This document shows, piece after piece, positions 3,533-13,965 of a stretch of DNA of 64,000 bases. Source of the DNA: Dictyostelium discoideum (Eukaryota); the NCBI GenBank assembly GCA_000004695.1, contig CM000152.2, forward strand, positions 5,504,001 to 5,568,000, given 5' to 3'. The notes beneath the pieces were generated by a model. It was not told the DNA's origin and searched no databases. It saw only the letters and a list, made by a program, of their open reading frames with translations. Position 1 is the first letter of the stretch. Each line of letters starts with the position of its first letter. Made by a program: the position numbers and the translations under genes.

Positions 3533-5512
<1,980 letters not shown>

Positions 5513-7593: not shown

Positions 7594-9272
7594 TTAACTT
7601 TGAATTGTTGTTAAAAAAAAAGTTGGAACTGTTGCACGGAATGAATAATCTCTATTATTTAATTTAACCATTGTAAAATAACCTCCCATATGACCCTGAG
7701 AACGTTCAATCTCACACCTACTACAATATTCACTAAATTTATTTATTTATTAATTAATTAGTATATTTTTTAATAATAAAAGAGAGAGAGAAAATATTAT
7801 TATTATTATTTTATTATTTATTTAATTTTATACATACAAAGTTACACCAGGTTTTATAATTGGAAATTTACCAATTACACCAGGACCATTTACATTTGAA
7901 GAACCATCAATTGTTGATATTATCCAAAAACGATGAGTTAATTGACAAGCATTTTTTGGATCTTCATCTTTATCCATTGAGATAGTTACTCTATAAAAGA
8001 AGGTATAAGAATTTTCATCCTCTGGTATATAAACTGCACTACATTTTATTTTAACACCTTGAGTTACAACCTCATCACCATTGTAAGGTGAAAACTCTGG
8101 ATATCTATAGAGTATTTTCCTTCTAGTTGTGAATACACCTTTCTCTAATGCAAAAGCATGTAAATATAAAAATTCCCAAAAACTATTTGCAACAATCATT
8201 GGACTACCCGGAGCAATTAATAAGATTTGGTCCTTTTTAAAACTCTTTTCTTCAATTTTAAAATCCCGCAATGCCATTATATAATATCTTCTAGAGGCAG
8301 AACATGCTACAAATAAAACATGTTGAAATGATTGCATATTTCTAGTCTTTTTATATAACGATATCGTCTTTTCAAGTGATAATAAAAATATATTTGTTTT
8401 TGATTCATATGCTTCAACTGTACCTAATAAACCATATCTTGTAAATTCTTTTTGTCCATTATGAATTAACATTGAACATAAATAATCAGCTGGTAATTTT
8501 ATATTATTATCATTATTAACAACATTATTTGAACTATTATTTGAACTATTATTTACAAATTTAATAGTTGAAATTAATTTATATAATTTAGTATGAGAAA
8601 TCGAATGAAAAGATTTTTTCATTGAATCCATTGAATTTAAATCCATCCAATTTTCAAATCTATCCCAAATGTATCTCATTGTTTTATAATGATGAATTAT
8701 ATTTGAATTAAATCTTTGATGTAATAATTTATTTACAATAATTGGTGTTAATTTTTCTTTTTCTATTATTTCATTTTGTTCTCTTTCTAAATCTAAATGT
8801 TCATTTTTATTTTTATTTTGACTTTTATATGATTTTCTTAATTCTTTTAAATAATTTGCTTCTTCATTAATATCATCGTCATCGTCATCATTATCTTCAT
8901 CTTCATCATCTTCATCATACTCTTCATCATACTCTTCATCATACTCTTCTTTTTCATCTTCATTTTCTTCATCTTTATTATCCTCCTCCTCCTCATTATT
9001 AGTATTAACATTATTTTCTACTTCTTCATTATTAATATTTAATTTATATTTGATAATTGCATTATCAGTTGATAATAAGAAATCTTTTTGAATAATATCA
9101 TTCCAAATCATATTTGAAATTGAAGAATTTGAAATGATTTGGTTAAAATATAAATTAACTTGAGATAATTCTAAAAGTGATTTTGTATGTAAATTTTGTA
9201 ATATAATTAATAAATTTTCAAATGGTATATTTAAAATGTAACATGGTTGTTGTTGTTGATTATCTTCATCTT

Positions 9273-9276
<4 letters not shown>
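7594..9276 (-). CDS. F-box only protein 3 (FBXO3)-like: N-terminal F-box plus C-terminal ApaG domain, 2 exons: complement(join(7594..7732,7838..9276))
   Basis: The N-terminal F-box reads 'YILNIPFENLLIILQNLHTKSLLELSQVN'. It is followed by a long acidic D/E/N region. The ApaG domain reads 'FFYRVTISMDKDEDPKNACQLTHRFWIISTIDGSSNVNGPGVIGKFPIIKPGVT' and ends at a GTATGT donor (phase 2). Exon 2 reads 'FEYCSRCEIERSQGHMGGYFTMV...', matching the ApaG consensus 'PGESFEYTSGCPL.T.GTMQGSYQM'. Confidence 0.7.
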
Positions 9277-9314
<38 letters not shown>

Positions 9315-9833
9315 TTTTATTATTAAATTATATTATTAAAATAAATATTTGTATGATTTTTAATTGAATATTTTATGATTGTAGTAAATGTGTGCAAATA
9401 ATTGTGTTTTTTTTTTTTTTTTTTTAATTATAAACCCATAATTAGTAAAGAAAAAAAAAAAAAAAATTAAAAAAAAAATAAAAAAAAAAAAAAAAAATTT
9501 AAAAAAATAATAAATGTTTAGAAATAAAAAAAAAAAAATTAAAAAAAAAATTAAAAAAAAAATAAAAAATTCATTGCATTTTTTTTTTTTTTTTTTCTTA
9601 AAATAGTAATTTTTGTTTTTTTTTTTTTTTTTTTATTTTTTTTATTTAATTATAAACTCGTAATCAAAAATTTGTTTATACCATTTTTTGATTAGATATT
9701 TTTTACTTTCATTGCAAAAGAAGAAAAAAATTTTAAAATTAAATTTAATTTAAAATTTTTTTTTTTTTTTTTTTTAGCCCAAACCAATCAAAAAAAAGTT
9801 TTTTTTTTTTTTTTTTTTTTTAATAATTAAATA

Positions 9834-11875
9834 ATGAACAGTGAAAATATAATTAAAGTTATTAAAGGAAAAAAAGTTGTAATAAATGGTGAAATAAAAC
9901 CAGCATCAATTTTAATTAAGTAAGTTTTTAATTAATAAAATAATAAATAATAAATAATAAATAATAAATAATTTTAAAATTAAAAATTAATTTATATTTT
10001 TTTTTATAAAGAAATGGTATTATTATTGATATTAAAGATTATTCAAGTGAAATTAAAGAAGAACATGAGGTTTTAATTGAAGAAGAGAAATTAGTTATTA
10101 TGGGTGGATTAGTTGATAGTCATGTTCATATTAATGAACCAGGTAGAACAGAATGGGAAGGATTTTTAAGTGCAACAAGTGCAGCAGCATCAGGTGGTGT
10201 AACAACCATTATTGATATGCCATTGAATAGTTCACCAGTTACAACAACATTTGAAAATTTACAAACTAAAATTGAATCGATGCCAGGTAAATTAAGAGTT
10301 GATGTTGGTTTATTGGGTGGTATTATACCGGGTAATTCATCAGAGATCTCTAGAATGGTATTAGAAGGTGGTGTAGTTGGTTTTAAATCATTTTTAGTTC
10401 ATTCTGGTATTGATGAATTCCCACATGTGAAAGAGGATGATATTCAAGAAGCAATGAATGTAATGAAAAAATTAAAAGATGAGCAAGGTGGAAGGGATGT
10501 AGTTATGATGTTTCATGCAGAGATTGAGGAACCAATTAAAGAGGCCACTGAGAGATTACAACGTGAGAATGCAGATCCAAAATTATACGACACCTTCCTC
10601 AAAAGTAGACCAAGAGTTAGTGAGAATATAGCAATTGATAAGGTTATTGAGTTAACTAAAAAGAATATGATAAAAACTCATATCGTTCATTTATCATCCA
10701 GTGATGCAATTGAAGCCATTCACGAGGCGGTTCATAATGATGGTGTGCCAATTACTGCAGAGACAACCTACCATTATCTATACTTTGAATCTGAGCAAGT
10801 CCCATACGGTAACACACTCTATAAATGCTGTCCACCAGTACGTGAAAGTGAAAATAAAGATTTACTTTGGAAAGCTGTGACCAATGGTACCATAAACATC
10901 ATCGTTAGCGACCACTCACCATGTACATTAGATTTGAAATTAATTGAACAAGGTGATTTCATGAAAGCATGGGGTGGCATTAGTTCGCTACAATTAGGCT
11001 TACCAATCATTTGGACAGAGGCTAGCAAAAGGGGTGTGCCATTAGCCAAACTCTCAGAATACATGTCTGACGCACCATCACGTCTAGTTGGCTTAAACGA
11101 TCGTAAAGGGTCAATTAAAATTGGCAGAGATGCAGATTTCGTTATATGGGATCCTGAAGAATCGTTTACAGTCGACCAAGGTCTATTAATGGTAAAAAAT
11201 AAAAATTCACCATACCACGGTGAAAAACTTTTAGGTGTAGTTCACCACACGATTTTACGTGGTAATAAAATATTTTCAAAAGGTGATCAAACAATTTCAA
11301 AAATTATTGGTAAACGTTTAATTCAAACTAAAATTCACACAAATCCAATTTACCCATCACCAACATTACCAACCATAGAGTTATTAAATAGTTTAACTGA
11401 GCAAAAAACATTCTTTGATTGTATTCATTTACTATTTGAAGCTGCACCACCTTTAGCAAATGCATTATTTTCAAAACGTCCATTCTCATCATATCAACAA
11501 TTAATCGATCAAGCTTATTCAATCATTCAATCATTAAATGAATCTGATAAAATTCAAGTTATCAATGCTCATCCAAGAATTGGTGTATCTGCATCACAAG
11601 TTAAAAATTCATCATCAATTAGTTACCGTGAACAATCTTGTGATAAAGATTCCTCGATTGATCAATCAATTCTTGAAAATTTAACACAATTAAATCAACA
11701 ATATGAATCAAAATTTGGTTTTAAATTTGTTGTATTTGTAAATGGTCGTCCAAAGAATGAAATCATTCCAATTTTACAAAATCGTTTAAATAATAATGAT
11801 AAACAAAAAGAATTAAATTTAGGTTTATCTGAAATGATTGAAATTTCAAAATCAAGATTATTAAAATTATTATAA
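9834..11875 (+). CDS. Bifunctional allantoinase (N-terminal, about 450 aa) fused in frame to OHCU decarboxylase (C-terminal, about 150 aa), 2 exons: join(9834..9919,10012..11875)
   Basis: Exon 1 reads [28 protein letters not shown] and ends at a GTAAGT donor at 9920 (phase 2). Exon 2 reads '[13 protein letters not shown]...[21 protein letters not shown]...[13 protein letters not shown]...', which is the allantoinase/dihydroorotase-type amidohydrolase. A single 591-codon ORF then continues into '...[14 protein letters not shown]...[29 protein letters not shown]...'. The HP-R-G and KFGFPF-ICARG-like motifs there mark OHCU decarboxylase. Confidence 0.85.
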
Positions 11876-11940: not shown

Positions 11941-13522
11941 TTATTTAATTTTATTTTTTCTATTTTTAATTTTATTTTCAATAATTTCTTCATTATTGTT
12001 ATTATTATTATTATTATAATTATTATTATTATAATTAATATTATTATTATTATTATTATCATCATTATTAATTAAAAAGTTTTTAAAATTATTTTGTCTT
12101 TTTTGAGAAATTTTTAAAAATAAAATGAAAATAATTGTAATGAATATTAAGAATAATAAAATTAAGATTAATTCAAAATGTTCTAATAAGAAAGCTGATA
12201 AAGATTTACCAGAACAATTTGGATTCATTAAGATTTCATTTACCATTGTTTCATTTGTACCTTTGAAATTACAAGTTGAACCACCTTGATCTAAATCGAC
12301 TAAACAATCGAAGCCATGATAAATTTGTCTTTTGAAATTGAATTTTCTAAATGAACTACTTGCCAATTCAAATTCATTCTTTGCAGTGATAATATTATTT
12401 TCAAATTTATTATTTGAATCTTGGAAATCAACATTTGAATAACTACAATAAATTGAAGACCCAAATAATGTTGCAACATTATTAACTATTCTATTCGATT
12501 GTAACTCCAATGAACATCTATCATTACAATTACTAACATAAATTGAACCACCATTATATGCATAATTCTCATAAAATATTGAATCAATAATTGTAATACG
12601 TTGTTTAATATTATTTAAAAACAATGCACCACCTAAACCTCTACCATAATTTTTATAAAAACTACTTGAATCAATTAAAATTTTACCTGAATTTATAATT
12701 GAAATTGCACCACCACCATTATTATTATTATAATTAATATTTTGATGATGATTGTTATTATTTTGATTATTATTTTGATTATTAATTGTTGTTGTTATAC
12801 CATATTTTTCATTACTATCAAATAATGAATTAAAAATTTCAACAATTTGAAAACCTGAAACTAATAATGAACCACTGCCAATATTATCTTTAAATAATGT
12901 TTGTTTAATTAAAAGTTTATTAAATATACCATTTGCATTCATTGGTATATCACCATTATTTGATTTACTCTCTAAATTCAATGATATCCATGGTGAATTA
13001 TTACTACCTCTTATATTTTTAATAATTGAATTTTCAATTTCAATATGAGTTGATGATTGTTTTGATTCAATTTTAATTGATGATTCATCCAATGGTATTG
13101 AGTTTTGATGAGTACCAATGAATCTTGAATTCTTTATTATAATTTGTACCCTTTGATTTGATATTTCTTTAACATTTAAAAATTGATTAAAATCATTTTC
13201 AAAATTACAATTTATAATATTTAAATTTAATCCACCAATACTACCACCACCACCACCACTATTACCACTATTACCACTGCCACTATTATCAAAATTTAAA
13301 ATATAATTCATTGAATTACTATCTTTAAATGAAATTCCTTTAAATGTAATTTCATTTTTTGATTTATTTGATAAATAAAACATTGGTTTTTCTGATCCAT
13401 CATTTTTAAAAATAACTTGTTCATTTGGATTTTGTTGTTTTGCTAATTGTTCAACTTCTTCTTCTAATATTTCATATTCAATATAACTTTCATCAAATGG
13501 ATTAATATTATCTTTATCATTT

Positions 13523-13557
<35 letters not shown>

Positions 13558-13965
13558 TTCGTCATTATCATCATCATTATCATCATCAATATCAATTTCT
13601 TCATTATCTTCTTCATTTGGATCAATTAATTTTAAAATTGGTAATTCTTGAAATAATGTATTTTCAAATGAAATATTTAAATCACTTAAATCTTGTTGAA
13701 TATTTTTATATTCACCTGGTGTAATATGAACTTTTATCTTTGAATAACTATTAATTGATTTATATTTATCTTTGATTTGATTGATTGCATAATCAATGCT
13801 TTTACATTGATGTTCATTTCCTAATAAACCACAACCATTTTCATCTTTTCCTTTACTATTTGAAATATATAAATCAATTTGATTATTACTTTGACAATAA
13901 TTAAATGATATAGTAATAAATAAAATTAAAAAAATAAGTGAAAATGAAATAATATTCACTTTCAT
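11941..13965 (-). CDS. Secreted/membrane protein with a predicted right-handed beta-helix (pectin-lyase-like fold), an acidic N/D-rich insert and a C-terminal transmembrane helix
   Basis: The N-terminal signal peptide is MKVNIISFSLIFLILFITISFNYC. A D/E/N-rich low-complexity block follows. Repeated G/N/S-rich beta-strand motifs follow, such as 'GGGAISIINSGKILIDSSSFYKNYGRGLGGALFLNNIKQRITIIDSIFYENYAYNGGSIYV'. The C-terminal hydrophobic stretch is 'LILILLFLIFITIIFILFL', followed by a basic/N-rich tail. Single 674-aa ORF. Confidence 0.5.

What the first reader, a model, noticed from the sequence alone, without database searches (positions are those of the whole stretch)
9834..11875. Allantoinase and OHCU decarboxylase fused in one polypeptide
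A single 591-codon exon runs from a complete allantoinase into a complete OHCU decarboxylase domain with no stop or intron between them. The allantoinase end carries the cyclic-amidohydrolase HxH metal motif '[11 protein letters not shown]'. The OHCU end carries 'AHPRIG...[13 protein letters not shown]'. OHCU decarboxylase makes (S)-allantoin and allantoinase hydrolyses it, so the fusion links two consecutive steps of urate catabolism. That would be a Rosetta-stone arrangement. The fusions I know of are different ones: OHCU decarboxylase with uricase in Bacillus PucL, and with HIU hydrolase in plant TTL. I could not confirm from memory whether existing annotation recognises the second domain here. 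The gene pairs divergently with the FBXO3-like gene across a 557-bp promoter region.
Basis: partly seen in the sequence, partly recalled or inferred. Interest (0 to 1): 0.7.

Follow-up and report, generated by a model that had tools for sequence, protein, structure and literature searches.

The report
Allantoinase fused to OHCU decarboxylase
This Dictyostelium discoideum gene (allB1, DDB_G0282199) really does join two consecutive urate-breakdown enzymes, OHCU decarboxylase and allantoinase, in one protein, but databases already record both domains and similar pathway fusions are known, so it is a modest finding.

Summary
Window 9834-11875 (+) is a two-exon gene: exon 1 9834-9919, a 92-nt GT..AG intron, and exon 2 10012-11875. 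Its 649-aa product is 100% identical to D. discoideum AX4 DDB_G0282199, UniProt Q54SV3 'Probable allantoinase 1'. Residues 1-465 pass the NCBIfam allantoinase equivalog model (489 bits, cut-off 358). Residues 492-645 match almost the whole Pfam OHCU_decarbox profile (E 1.8e-38). No stop or intron separates the two parts. All metal ligands and catalytic residues of both domains are invariant in 14 fused orthologues from Dictyostelia and from Ceratiomyxa and Clastostelium transcriptomes. Both halves are under purifying selection (dN/dS 0.13-0.18 and 0.37-0.41). Balamuthia has separate genes. The same N-to-C architecture also occurs in bacteria such as Agromyces and Thermoanaerobaculia, inside operons with uricase and/or HIU hydrolase, and seems to have arisen independently there. 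Precomputed Pfam annotation already lists both domains, but source names say only 'allantoinase'. I found no paper describing the fusion. Verdict: a real, conserved and probably bifunctional enzyme, and a new member of a known kind of ureide-pathway fusion. Interest is low to moderate.

The parts
9277..9833 (.). 557-bp AT-rich intergenic region shared with the divergent FBXO3-like gene (7828-9276, minus strand). It is presumed to hold a bidirectional promoter.
   Evidence: Sequence, ORFs. The neighbour has F-box, SMI1_KNR4 and ApaG domains. Promoter function is inferred and was not tested.
9834..9919 (+). Exon 1: the start codon plus residues 1-28 and two bases of codon 29. This is the N-terminal beta-strand part of allantoinase.
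   Evidence: The spliced product is 100% identical to Q54SV3.
9920..10011 (+). The only intron: 92 nt, GTAAGT...AAAG, 3% G+C.
   Evidence: A single intron lies at about the same distance from the start codon (86 and 95 nt of exon 1) in D. firmibasis and D. purpureum.
10012..11875 (+). Exon 2, residues 29-649 plus the TAA stop. One uninterrupted frame runs through both domains.
10115..10147 (+). [11 protein letters not shown], residues 64-74. H66 and H68 form the HxH metal-ligand pair and align with E. coli AllB His59 and His61.
   Evidence: Alignment to 3E74. Invariant in 14 orthologues.
10012..11320 (+). The exon-2 part of the allantoinase domain. The domain covers residues 1-465 in all. The other metal ligands are K154, H197, H255 and D329.
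   Evidence: TIGR03178 matches residues 9-464 at 489 bits, above the cut-off of 357.85. PF01979 matches residues 58-447. PDB allantoinases 3HM7 and 3E74 match at E 1e-73 to 1e-76.
11321..11365 (+). Linker, residues 466-480 ([14 protein letters not shown]). It is predicted to be coil and is partly conserved: T468 is invariant and Y476 nearly so.
   Evidence: Alignment A1. In the AF2 model residues 452-483 have no regular secondary structure.
11366..11872 (+). OHCU decarboxylase domain, residues 481-649, with H549 (in AHPRIG), E569, R608 and R644.
   Evidence: PF09349 matches residues 492-645 at E 1.8e-38. PDB OHCU decarboxylases 5UOU, 3O7H, 2O70 and 2Q37 match at E 1e-10 to 1e-12. The AF2 model is all-helical here. 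The P. violaceum stand-alone gene starts at the position equivalent to residue 480-481.

Best explanation
The locus is D. discoideum allB1 (DDB_G0282199). It encodes one 649-aa polypeptide with two catalytic modules for consecutive steps of urate catabolism.

The C-terminal module (about residues 481-649) is an OHCU decarboxylase. It would convert 2-oxo-4-hydroxy-4-carboxy-5-ureidoimidazoline into (S)-allantoin, using the conserved His549, Glu569 and Arg644 set. The N-terminal module (residues 1-465) is a binuclear-metal cyclic amidohydrolase of the AllB type. It would open the hydantoin ring of (S)-allantoin to give allantoate. A proline-rich coil of about 15-30 residues tethers the two.

The likely benefit is obligatory co-expression, 1:1 stoichiometry and co-localisation of the enzyme that makes the S-enantiomer with the enzyme that accepts only that enantiomer. 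This limits the spontaneous decay of OHCU to racemic allantoin.

What is shown: gene structure, domain identity, residue conservation, purifying selection, phylogenetic spread, and separate genes in outgroups. What is inferred: both activities in the fused protein, one mRNA in D. discoideum itself, and any kinetic advantage or channelling.
For: - Gene model: identical to Q54SV3.
- Domain identity: allantoinase equivalog model passed at 489 bits against a cut-off of 357.85. OHCU_decarbox matched at E 1.8e-38 over nearly the full profile.
- Allantoinase residues: alignment to E. coli AllB 3E74 puts H66, H68 and K154 on His59, His61 and Lys146 (my count from the printed alignment), and H197, H255 and D329 on its HCE, CHVSS and SDHSP motifs (His186, His242 and Asp315 by motif and memory).
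- OHCU residues: alignment to zebrafish 2O70 puts H549, E569 and R644 on His67, Glu87 and Arg161. All of these are invariant in 14 fused orthologues.
- Selection: dN/dS is 0.13 and 0.18 for the allantoinase part and 0.37 and 0.41 for the OHCU part, against D. firmibasis and D. purpureum respectively. Neither species has an intron between the domains.
- Spread: the fused ORF is found in all sampled dictyostelid genera and in complete Trinity transcript ORFs of Ceratiomyxa fruticulosa and Clastostelium recurvatum. The latter is transcript-level evidence that a fused mRNA exists in relatives.
- Reproducibility: the identical ORF appears in several D. discoideum strains and in 6 independent SRA assemblies.
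- Separate genes elsewhere: Balamuthia and fungi.
- Bacterial parallel: independent bacterial fusions have the same domain order and sit beside HIU hydrolase and xanthine dehydrogenase genes, plus uricase in Agromyces.
- Stereochemistry: AllB uses only (S)-allantoin, and uncatalysed OHCU decay gives the racemate (PMC12623156, read).
Against: - No enzymatic data exist for this protein.
- I have no transcript or protein evidence from D. discoideum itself. The Logan contigs that carry the ORF still contain the intron, so they are genomic.
- The OHCU part falls below the curated cut-offs of the bacterial NCBIfam models: 97 against 124, 92 against 139, and 87 against 96.
- The OHCU part evolves two to three times faster than the allantoinase part.
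- (S)-allantoin is a stable metabolite, so true substrate channelling is not required and is not shown.
- P. violaceum has a stand-alone OHCU decarboxylase gene, so the tether is dispensable.
Confidence: 0.85

Rival explanations
1. The C-terminal domain is a catalytically dead remnant. It would now serve only as an oligomerisation, stability or regulatory module of allantoinase, with OHCU decarboxylation either spontaneous or done by another gene.
For: dN/dS is higher for residues 481-649 (0.37-0.41) than for the allantoinase part (0.13-0.18). The scores fall below the bacterial NCBIfam equivalog cut-offs. Acytostelium has HS in place of the near-invariant HP.
Against: H549, E569, Q570, R608 and R644 are invariant in 14 sequences spanning Dictyostelia and Protosporangiida. 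The Pfam match covers nearly the full profile and scores 133 bits against a gathering score of 24. The domain is 47-54% identical to stand-alone eukaryotic enzymes.
Confidence: 0.08
2. The fused gene was acquired ready-made from bacteria by horizontal transfer, not assembled within the eumycetozoan lineage.
For: Bacteria have the same N-allantoinase / C-OHCU architecture. After Balamuthia, a rotifer-labelled sequence and several unnamed metagenome proteins, the named relatives of the allantoinase part are Acidobacteriota proteins at 50-52% identity.
Against: The D. discoideum OHCU domain is 47-54% identical to stand-alone fungal and Balamuthia enzymes but only 28-33% identical to the OHCU domains of the bacterial fusions. 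The allantoinase part is 55-57% identical to stand-alone Balamuthia and Didymodactylos proteins but 36-44% identical to the bacterial fusions. These are pairwise identities. No tree was built.
Confidence: 0.05
3. The fusion is an artefact: two adjacent genes joined by an assembly or annotation error, or a missed stop or intron.
For: I saw no D. discoideum transcript that spans the junction.
Against: The frame is continuous and the composition at the junction is coding-like. The identical ORF is present in 6 independent SRA assemblies and in several strains. The same fusion is found in 14 species, including transcript-derived ORFs. The linker is partly conserved.
Confidence: 0.02

Closest known systems
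Stand-alone allantoinase AllB / DAL1 (EC 3.5.2.5; E. coli AllB PDB 3E74, Bacillus 3HM7)
   Same: It has the same cyclic-amidohydrolase TIM-barrel family and the same HxH, Lys, His, His, Asp metal-ligand set. It scores above the TIGR03178 equivalog cut-off.
   Different: It carries an extra C-terminal domain of about 170 residues. The D. discoideum paralogue allB2 (510 aa, 67% identical) lacks that domain and instead has a hydrophobic, signal-peptide-like N-terminus.
Stand-alone OHCU decarboxylase Urad / UraD / HpxQ (EC 4.1.1.97; zebrafish 2O70, Klebsiella 3O7H, Arabidopsis 2Q37)
   Same: The Pfam PF09349 match covers nearly the full profile. The His, Glu and Arg catalytic residues are conserved. 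The predicted fold is all-helical.
   Different: It is tethered to the C-terminus of the next enzyme in the pathway. It has no conserved C-terminal PTS1-type tripeptide: the ends vary among -KLL, -KLI, -KLNL, -KLHP and others.
Plant allantoin synthase / transthyretin-like protein (TTL): OHCU decarboxylase fused to HIU hydrolase
   Same: It is a fusion of OHCU decarboxylase with a neighbouring step of the urate-to-allantoin pathway (noted in PMC3646786).
   Different: The partner there is the upstream enzyme, HIU hydrolase. Here the partner is the downstream enzyme, allantoinase.
Bacillus subtilis PucL: OHCU decarboxylase fused to urate oxidase
   Same: It is an OHCU decarboxylase domain fused to another ureide-pathway enzyme (from my own knowledge of the field; not checked with a tool here).
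   Different: The partner there is uricase, two steps upstream.
Cryptococcus Dal2,3,3: allantoicase fused to ureidoglycolate hydrolase
   Same: It is a fusion of consecutive steps in the same pathway, confirmed by cDNA and interpreted as possible channelling (PMC3646786).
   Different: The enzymes are different, the fusion is specific to basidiomycetes, and it acts downstream of allantoate.
Bacterial allantoinase-OHCU decarboxylase fusions (e.g. Agromyces WP_386937914.1, a Thermoanaerobaculia MAG, metagenome clusters)
   Same: The domain order and sizes are identical (604-672 aa), with both Pfam domains present. They sit in purine-catabolism operons.
   Different: They are only 28-44% identical per domain to the D. 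discoideum protein, whose domains are closer to stand-alone eukaryotic enzymes. This points to independent fusion events.

Membership tests
Allantoinase (AllB type, cyclic amidohydrolase superfamily) | Scores above the curated cut-off of an allantoinase equivalog model, not of a dihydroorotase or hydantoinase model | tested here: met
   TIGR03178 scores 489.2 bits against a cut-off of 357.85 and is the best family. All dihydroorotase, hydantoinase and ErtD models score below their cut-offs.
Allantoinase (AllB type, cyclic amidohydrolase superfamily) | Binuclear metal-centre ligands: HxH, a carbamylatable Lys, two His and an Asp | tested here: met
   H66, H68 and K154 align with E. coli AllB His59, His61 and Lys146 by my count from the printed alignment; H197, H255 and D329 align with its HCE, CHVSS and SDHSP motifs. 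All are invariant in 14 orthologues.
Allantoinase (AllB type, cyclic amidohydrolase superfamily) | Hydrolyses (S)-allantoin to allantoate | not testable with these tools
   This needs an enzyme assay.
OHCU decarboxylase (Pfam PF09349, EC 4.1.1.97) | Full-length match to the family profile above the gathering score | tested here: met
   132.9 bits against a gathering score of 24, covering profile positions 4-154 of 155 at residues 492-645.
OHCU decarboxylase (Pfam PF09349, EC 4.1.1.97) | Passes the NCBIfam (bacterial) equivalog or subfamily cut-offs | tested here: not met
   NF010372 scores 97 against 124, TIGR03180 92 against 139, and TIGR03164 87.4 against 96.25. These thresholds are tuned on bacterial sequences. 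I do not regard this miss as disqualifying, but I report it as it stands.
OHCU decarboxylase (Pfam PF09349, EC 4.1.1.97) | Catalytic His (in the HP motif), Glu and C-terminal Arg | tested here: met
   H549, E569 and R644 align with zebrafish His67, Glu87 and Arg161. The residue roles come from my memory of Cendron et al. 2007. The residues are invariant in 14 orthologues.
OHCU decarboxylase (Pfam PF09349, EC 4.1.1.97) | All-alpha fold | tested here: met
   The AF2 model has only helices in residues 484-648, with pLDDT mostly 75-93. I ran no fold search.
Rosetta-stone (bifunctional) fusion of consecutive pathway enzymes | Both components lie in one ORF, with no stop or intron between them | tested here: met
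Rosetta-stone (bifunctional) fusion of consecutive pathway enzymes | The components occur as separate genes in other genomes | tested here: met
   Balamuthia has an allantoinase (475 aa) and an OHCU decarboxylase (302 aa). Fungi have stand-alone OHCU decarboxylases. P. violaceum has a stand-alone OHCU decarboxylase gene.
Rosetta-stone (bifunctional) fusion of consecutive pathway enzymes | The fusion is conserved and under selection, not a one-off | tested here: met
   There are 14 eumycetozoan orthologues, dN/dS is below 0.5 for both halves, and 24 of the best 150 cluster representatives are fused.
Rosetta-stone (bifunctional) fusion of consecutive pathway enzymes | One mRNA and one polypeptide in this organism | not tested
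   Only indirect evidence exists: complete Trinity ORFs in Ceratiomyxa and Clastostelium. The D. discoideum contigs I found are genomic.

The most novel reading that the evidence does not exclude
The same allantoinase-to-OHCU-decarboxylase order has arisen independently in Eumycetozoa and in bacteria (24 of 24 fused representatives share it). This would reflect a real physical coupling, such as a defined inter-domain or oligomeric geometry that hands (S)-allantoin directly to the amidohydrolase site. In addition, the dictyostelid protein has no signal peptide, no PTS2-like motif and no conserved PTS1. That would move the last step of allantoin synthesis out of the peroxisome, which implies export of HIU or OHCU rather than of allantoin.
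Probability: 0.15. Interest if true: 0.45.

Novelty: new member of a known kind. Interest (0 to 1): 0.3.

Why it matters
It adds a fourth partner, the downstream enzyme allantoinase, to the known set of fusions involving OHCU decarboxylase, alongside uricase and HIU hydrolase. The recurrence in Eumycetozoa and in several bacterial lineages is independent genomic evidence that making and consuming the S-enantiomer of allantoin are functionally coupled.

In practice it is mainly an annotation point. The D. discoideum protein and its bacterial counterparts are named only 'allantoinase', so pathway reconstructions that search by name will wrongly report OHCU decarboxylase as missing from these genomes. 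It opens no new mechanism and settles no long-standing question.

Tried and rejected
- Literature: seven full-text searches found no paper that mentions an allantoinase-OHCU decarboxylase fusion. The terms combined OHCU decarboxylase, allantoinase, Dictyostelium, fusion, fused, bifunctional, COG3195, the locus and UniProt identifiers, and urate oxidase. The passages I read discuss only the TTL and Dal2,3,3 fusions. Ramazzina et al. 2006 (PubMed 16462750) is not held, so I could not check whether it notes the fusion.
- Word-index search with the C-terminal domain alone: it returned only single-domain proteins and did not even recover the fused dictyostelid proteins. It is therefore not a valid survey of architectures. 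I replaced it with an exhaustive HMMER search using a junction-spanning query, residues 330-649.
- Transcript evidence: I looked up the contigs that carry the 591-aa ORF. They still contain intron sequence, so they are genomic.
- Peroxisomal targeting: the C-terminus is -KLL and is not conserved, and no PTS2-like motif is present. I drew no localisation conclusion beyond 'no obvious signal'.
- Assembly or annotation artefact, and horizontal transfer of a pre-fused bacterial gene: both were considered and rejected (see the rival explanations).
- AF2 model from the 14-sequence alignment: it gave only moderate confidence (mean pLDDT 74.6, pTM 0.77). I used it only for secondary-structure class and linker disorder, not for inter-domain geometry. 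I ran no fold search because the sequence evidence was already decisive.

Full report
**What is in the sequence**

The ORF list shows a 591-aa ORF at 10100..11875 (+), counted from the first in-frame ATG. Reading upstream shows an ATG at 9834, a GTAAGT donor at 9920 and an AG acceptor at 10010-10011.

Joining 9834-9919 to 10012-11875 gives a 1950-nt CDS in frame and a 649-aa protein. That protein is 100% identical over its full length to D. discoideum AX4 DDB_G0282199 (XP_640282.1, UniProt Q54SV3, 'Probable allantoinase 1').

The '591-codon exon' is really the ORF from the first ATG. Exon 2 is 1864 nt including the stop, and the first 58 allantoinase residues lie upstream of 10100.

The intron has 3% G+C. 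The domain junction (11300-11460) has 29% G+C and contains no stop. The quoted motifs are at residues 64-74, 548-553 and 596-608.

The divergent neighbour at 7828-9276 (-) is 557 bp away and has F-box, SMI1/KNR4 and ApaG domains.

**Domain identity**

Pfam gives Amidohydro_1 at residues 58-447 (E 2.9e-24) and OHCU_decarbox at residues 492-645 (E 1.8e-38), the latter covering profile positions 4-154 of 155. NCBIfam's allantoinase equivalog TIGR03178 scores 489 bits against a cut-off of 357.85. Every dihydroorotase, hydantoinase and ErtD model falls below its cut-off.

The C-terminal part hits the bacterial OHCU decarboxylase NCBIfam models significantly but below their curated cut-offs: 97 against 124, 92 against 139 and 87 against 96.

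Against solved structures, the N-terminal part matches the allantoinases 3HM7 and 3E74 at E 1e-73 to 1e-76. H66, H68 and K154 align with E. coli His59, His61 and Lys146 by my count from the printed alignment, and H197, H255 and D329 align with its HCE, CHVSS and SDHSP motifs (His186, His242 and Asp315 by motif and memory). The C-terminal part matches the OHCU decarboxylases 5UOU, 3O7H, 2O70 and 2Q37 at E 1e-10 to 1e-12, and H549, E569 and R644 align with zebrafish His67, Glu87 and Arg161.

An AlphaFold2 model built on 14 sequences has pTM 0.77 and mean pLDDT 74.6. It shows no regular secondary structure in residues 452-483, followed by an all-helical domain at 484-648.

**Conservation**

A whole-protein search found both Pfam domains in orthologues of 638-665 aa from many taxa:
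- Dictyostelium species (discoideum, citrinum, dimigraforme, firmibasis, purpureum)
- Tieghemostelium, Cavenderia, Acytostelium, Heterostelium and Synstelium
- complete Trinity transcript ORFs of Ceratiomyxa fruticulosa and Clastostelium recurvatum

The fusion is therefore at least as old as the common ancestor of these dictyostelids and of Ceratiomyxa and Clastostelium. A fused mRNA exists in those relatives.

In the 14-sequence alignment, all the catalytic residues listed above are invariant. Nei-Gojobori dN/dS against D. firmibasis and D. purpureum is 0.13 and 0.18 for residues 1-465, and 0.37 and 0.41 for residues 481-649. Both species have a single 5' intron at about the same distance from the start codon and none between the domains.

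**Separate versus fused elsewhere**

Balamuthia mandrillaris has a stand-alone allantoinase (475 aa) and a stand-alone OHCU decarboxylase (302 aa). Fungi have stand-alone OHCU decarboxylases that are 47-54% identical to the D. discoideum domain.

Polysphondylium violaceum has a stand-alone OHCU decarboxylase gene. Its reading frame opens with an ATG at L001:4894, at the position that aligns with residues 480-481 of the D. discoideum protein. A protein kinase gene lies upstream, not an allantoinase.

D. discoideum also has a second allantoinase, allB2 (510 aa, 67% identical). It lacks the OHCU domain and has a hydrophobic N-terminus.

**Wider distribution**

I ran an exhaustive HMMER search of 1.84 billion cluster representatives with a junction-spanning query, residues 330-649. 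Of the best 150 representatives, 24 carry both parts, always in the order allantoinase then OHCU decarboxylase.

Ten full-length examples (604-672 aa) have both Pfam domains. They include Agromyces sp. WP_386937914.1 and a Thermoanaerobaculia MAG, both named only 'allantoinase AllB'.

In Agromyces the fused gene is followed by HIU hydrolase and uricase genes and preceded by xanthine dehydrogenase genes. In a second bacterial contig it is flanked by a xanthine/uracil permease, an adenine-deaminase-like gene, HIU hydrolase and xanthine dehydrogenase.

The bacterial fusions are only 28-33% (OHCU part) and 36-44% (allantoinase part) identical to the D. discoideum domains. That is less than the stand-alone eukaryotic enzymes show. 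The eumycetozoan and bacterial fusions therefore most likely arose independently. This rests on pairwise identities, not on a tree.

**Mechanism**

Established biochemistry says three things. OHCU decarboxylase makes (S)-allantoin. Uncatalysed OHCU decay gives racemic allantoin. AllB-type allantoinase accepts only the S-enantiomer (restated in PMC12623156).

Tethering the two enzymes guarantees equal expression and co-localisation. Recurrence of the fusion in unrelated lineages, together with operon linkage in bacteria, supports a functional coupling. Direct channelling is not shown and is not needed chemically, because allantoin is stable.

Both activities of the fused protein, and a single mRNA in D. 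discoideum itself, remain inferences. The contigs I found for the ORF are genomic.

**Novelty**

The gene is annotated, and the precomputed Pfam list for it and for every orthologue already includes PF09349. Domain-level databases therefore recognise the second domain. The names given by the sources do not.

Seven full-text searches found no paper that describes this fusion. The fusions discussed in the papers I read are OHCU decarboxylase with HIU hydrolase in plants, and allantoicase with ureidoglycolate hydrolase in Cryptococcus. The library lacks most subscription papers, including Ramazzina et al. 2006, so I cannot exclude a prior mention.

I rate it a new member of a known kind: one more ureide-pathway Rosetta-stone fusion. 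It is real and conserved, and its interest is low to moderate.

Noticed in passing
L001:4894-5420 (Polysphondylium violaceum AJWJ01000014.1): This is a stand-alone OHCU decarboxylase gene. The annotated product (KAF2077979.1, 139 aa, starting at 5001) looks N-terminally truncated, because homology to the D. discoideum protein starts at an ATG at 4894, at the position equivalent to residues 480-481. No allantoinase lies upstream; a protein kinase gene sits on the other strand. No P. violaceum allantoinase appeared among the top 120 hits. This could be a gene fission or loss of the allantoinase part.
   Followed up: partly
P0017 (D. discoideum allB2 paralogue, not in this window): The second allantoinase (510 aa) is 67% identical to the allB1 amidohydrolase part. 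That is closer than the fused orthologues of the other dictyostelid genera compared (61-64%; D. purpureum is 70%), so it may be a duplicate that arose within Dictyostelium. It lacks the OHCU domain and has a hydrophobic, signal-peptide-like N-terminus (MEIWKVIFSIWFLLFQNFVLS), which suggests a different compartment.
   Followed up: partly
L004:8001-9926 (Agromyces sp.) and L005:8001-10019 (metagenome contig): These bacterial allantoinase-OHCU decarboxylase fusions are named only 'allantoinase AllB'. They overlap the start of a downstream HIU hydrolase gene by 4 nt and sit in xanthine dehydrogenase purine-catabolism clusters, with uricase too in Agromyces. Name-based pathway reconstruction would miss the decarboxylase.
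   Followed up: partly
window 7828-9276 (-): The divergent neighbour is a 482-aa protein with F-box, SMI1/KNR4 (SUKH-1) and ApaG (DUF525) domains and a long acidic insert. I recall this as the FBXO3 architecture.
   Followed up: partly
window 11941-13965 (-): The convergent downstream gene (674 aa, rich in Asn and Gly repeats, with hydrophobic N-terminal and near-C-terminal segments) has no Pfam hit. A minus-strand gene in the same downstream position in D. purpureum (570 aa) carries PF13229 Beta_helix; I did not compare the two. Only 65 bp separate the two stop codons.
   Followed up: no
P0263 (464 aa cluster representative): This protein has an aldehyde-dehydrogenase-like N-terminal part followed by a complete OHCU decarboxylase domain that ends in -SKL, a canonical PTS1. 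It is either another fusion architecture or a merged gene model. The organism is unknown.
   Followed up: no
P0020 (Didymodactylos carnosus, rotifer): Outside the fused group and the allB2-type paralogues, the closest relative of the allantoinase part (57% identity) is labelled as a bdelloid rotifer protein, ahead of Balamuthia. This may be contamination by an amoebozoan or a horizontal transfer.
   Followed up: no
window 9277-9833: The 557-bp intergenic region is about 10% G+C and contains several homopolymer A or T runs of 15-45 nt. This looks typical of the AT-rich intergenic DNA elsewhere in the region profiled, and there is nothing specific to this gene pair.
   Followed up: no
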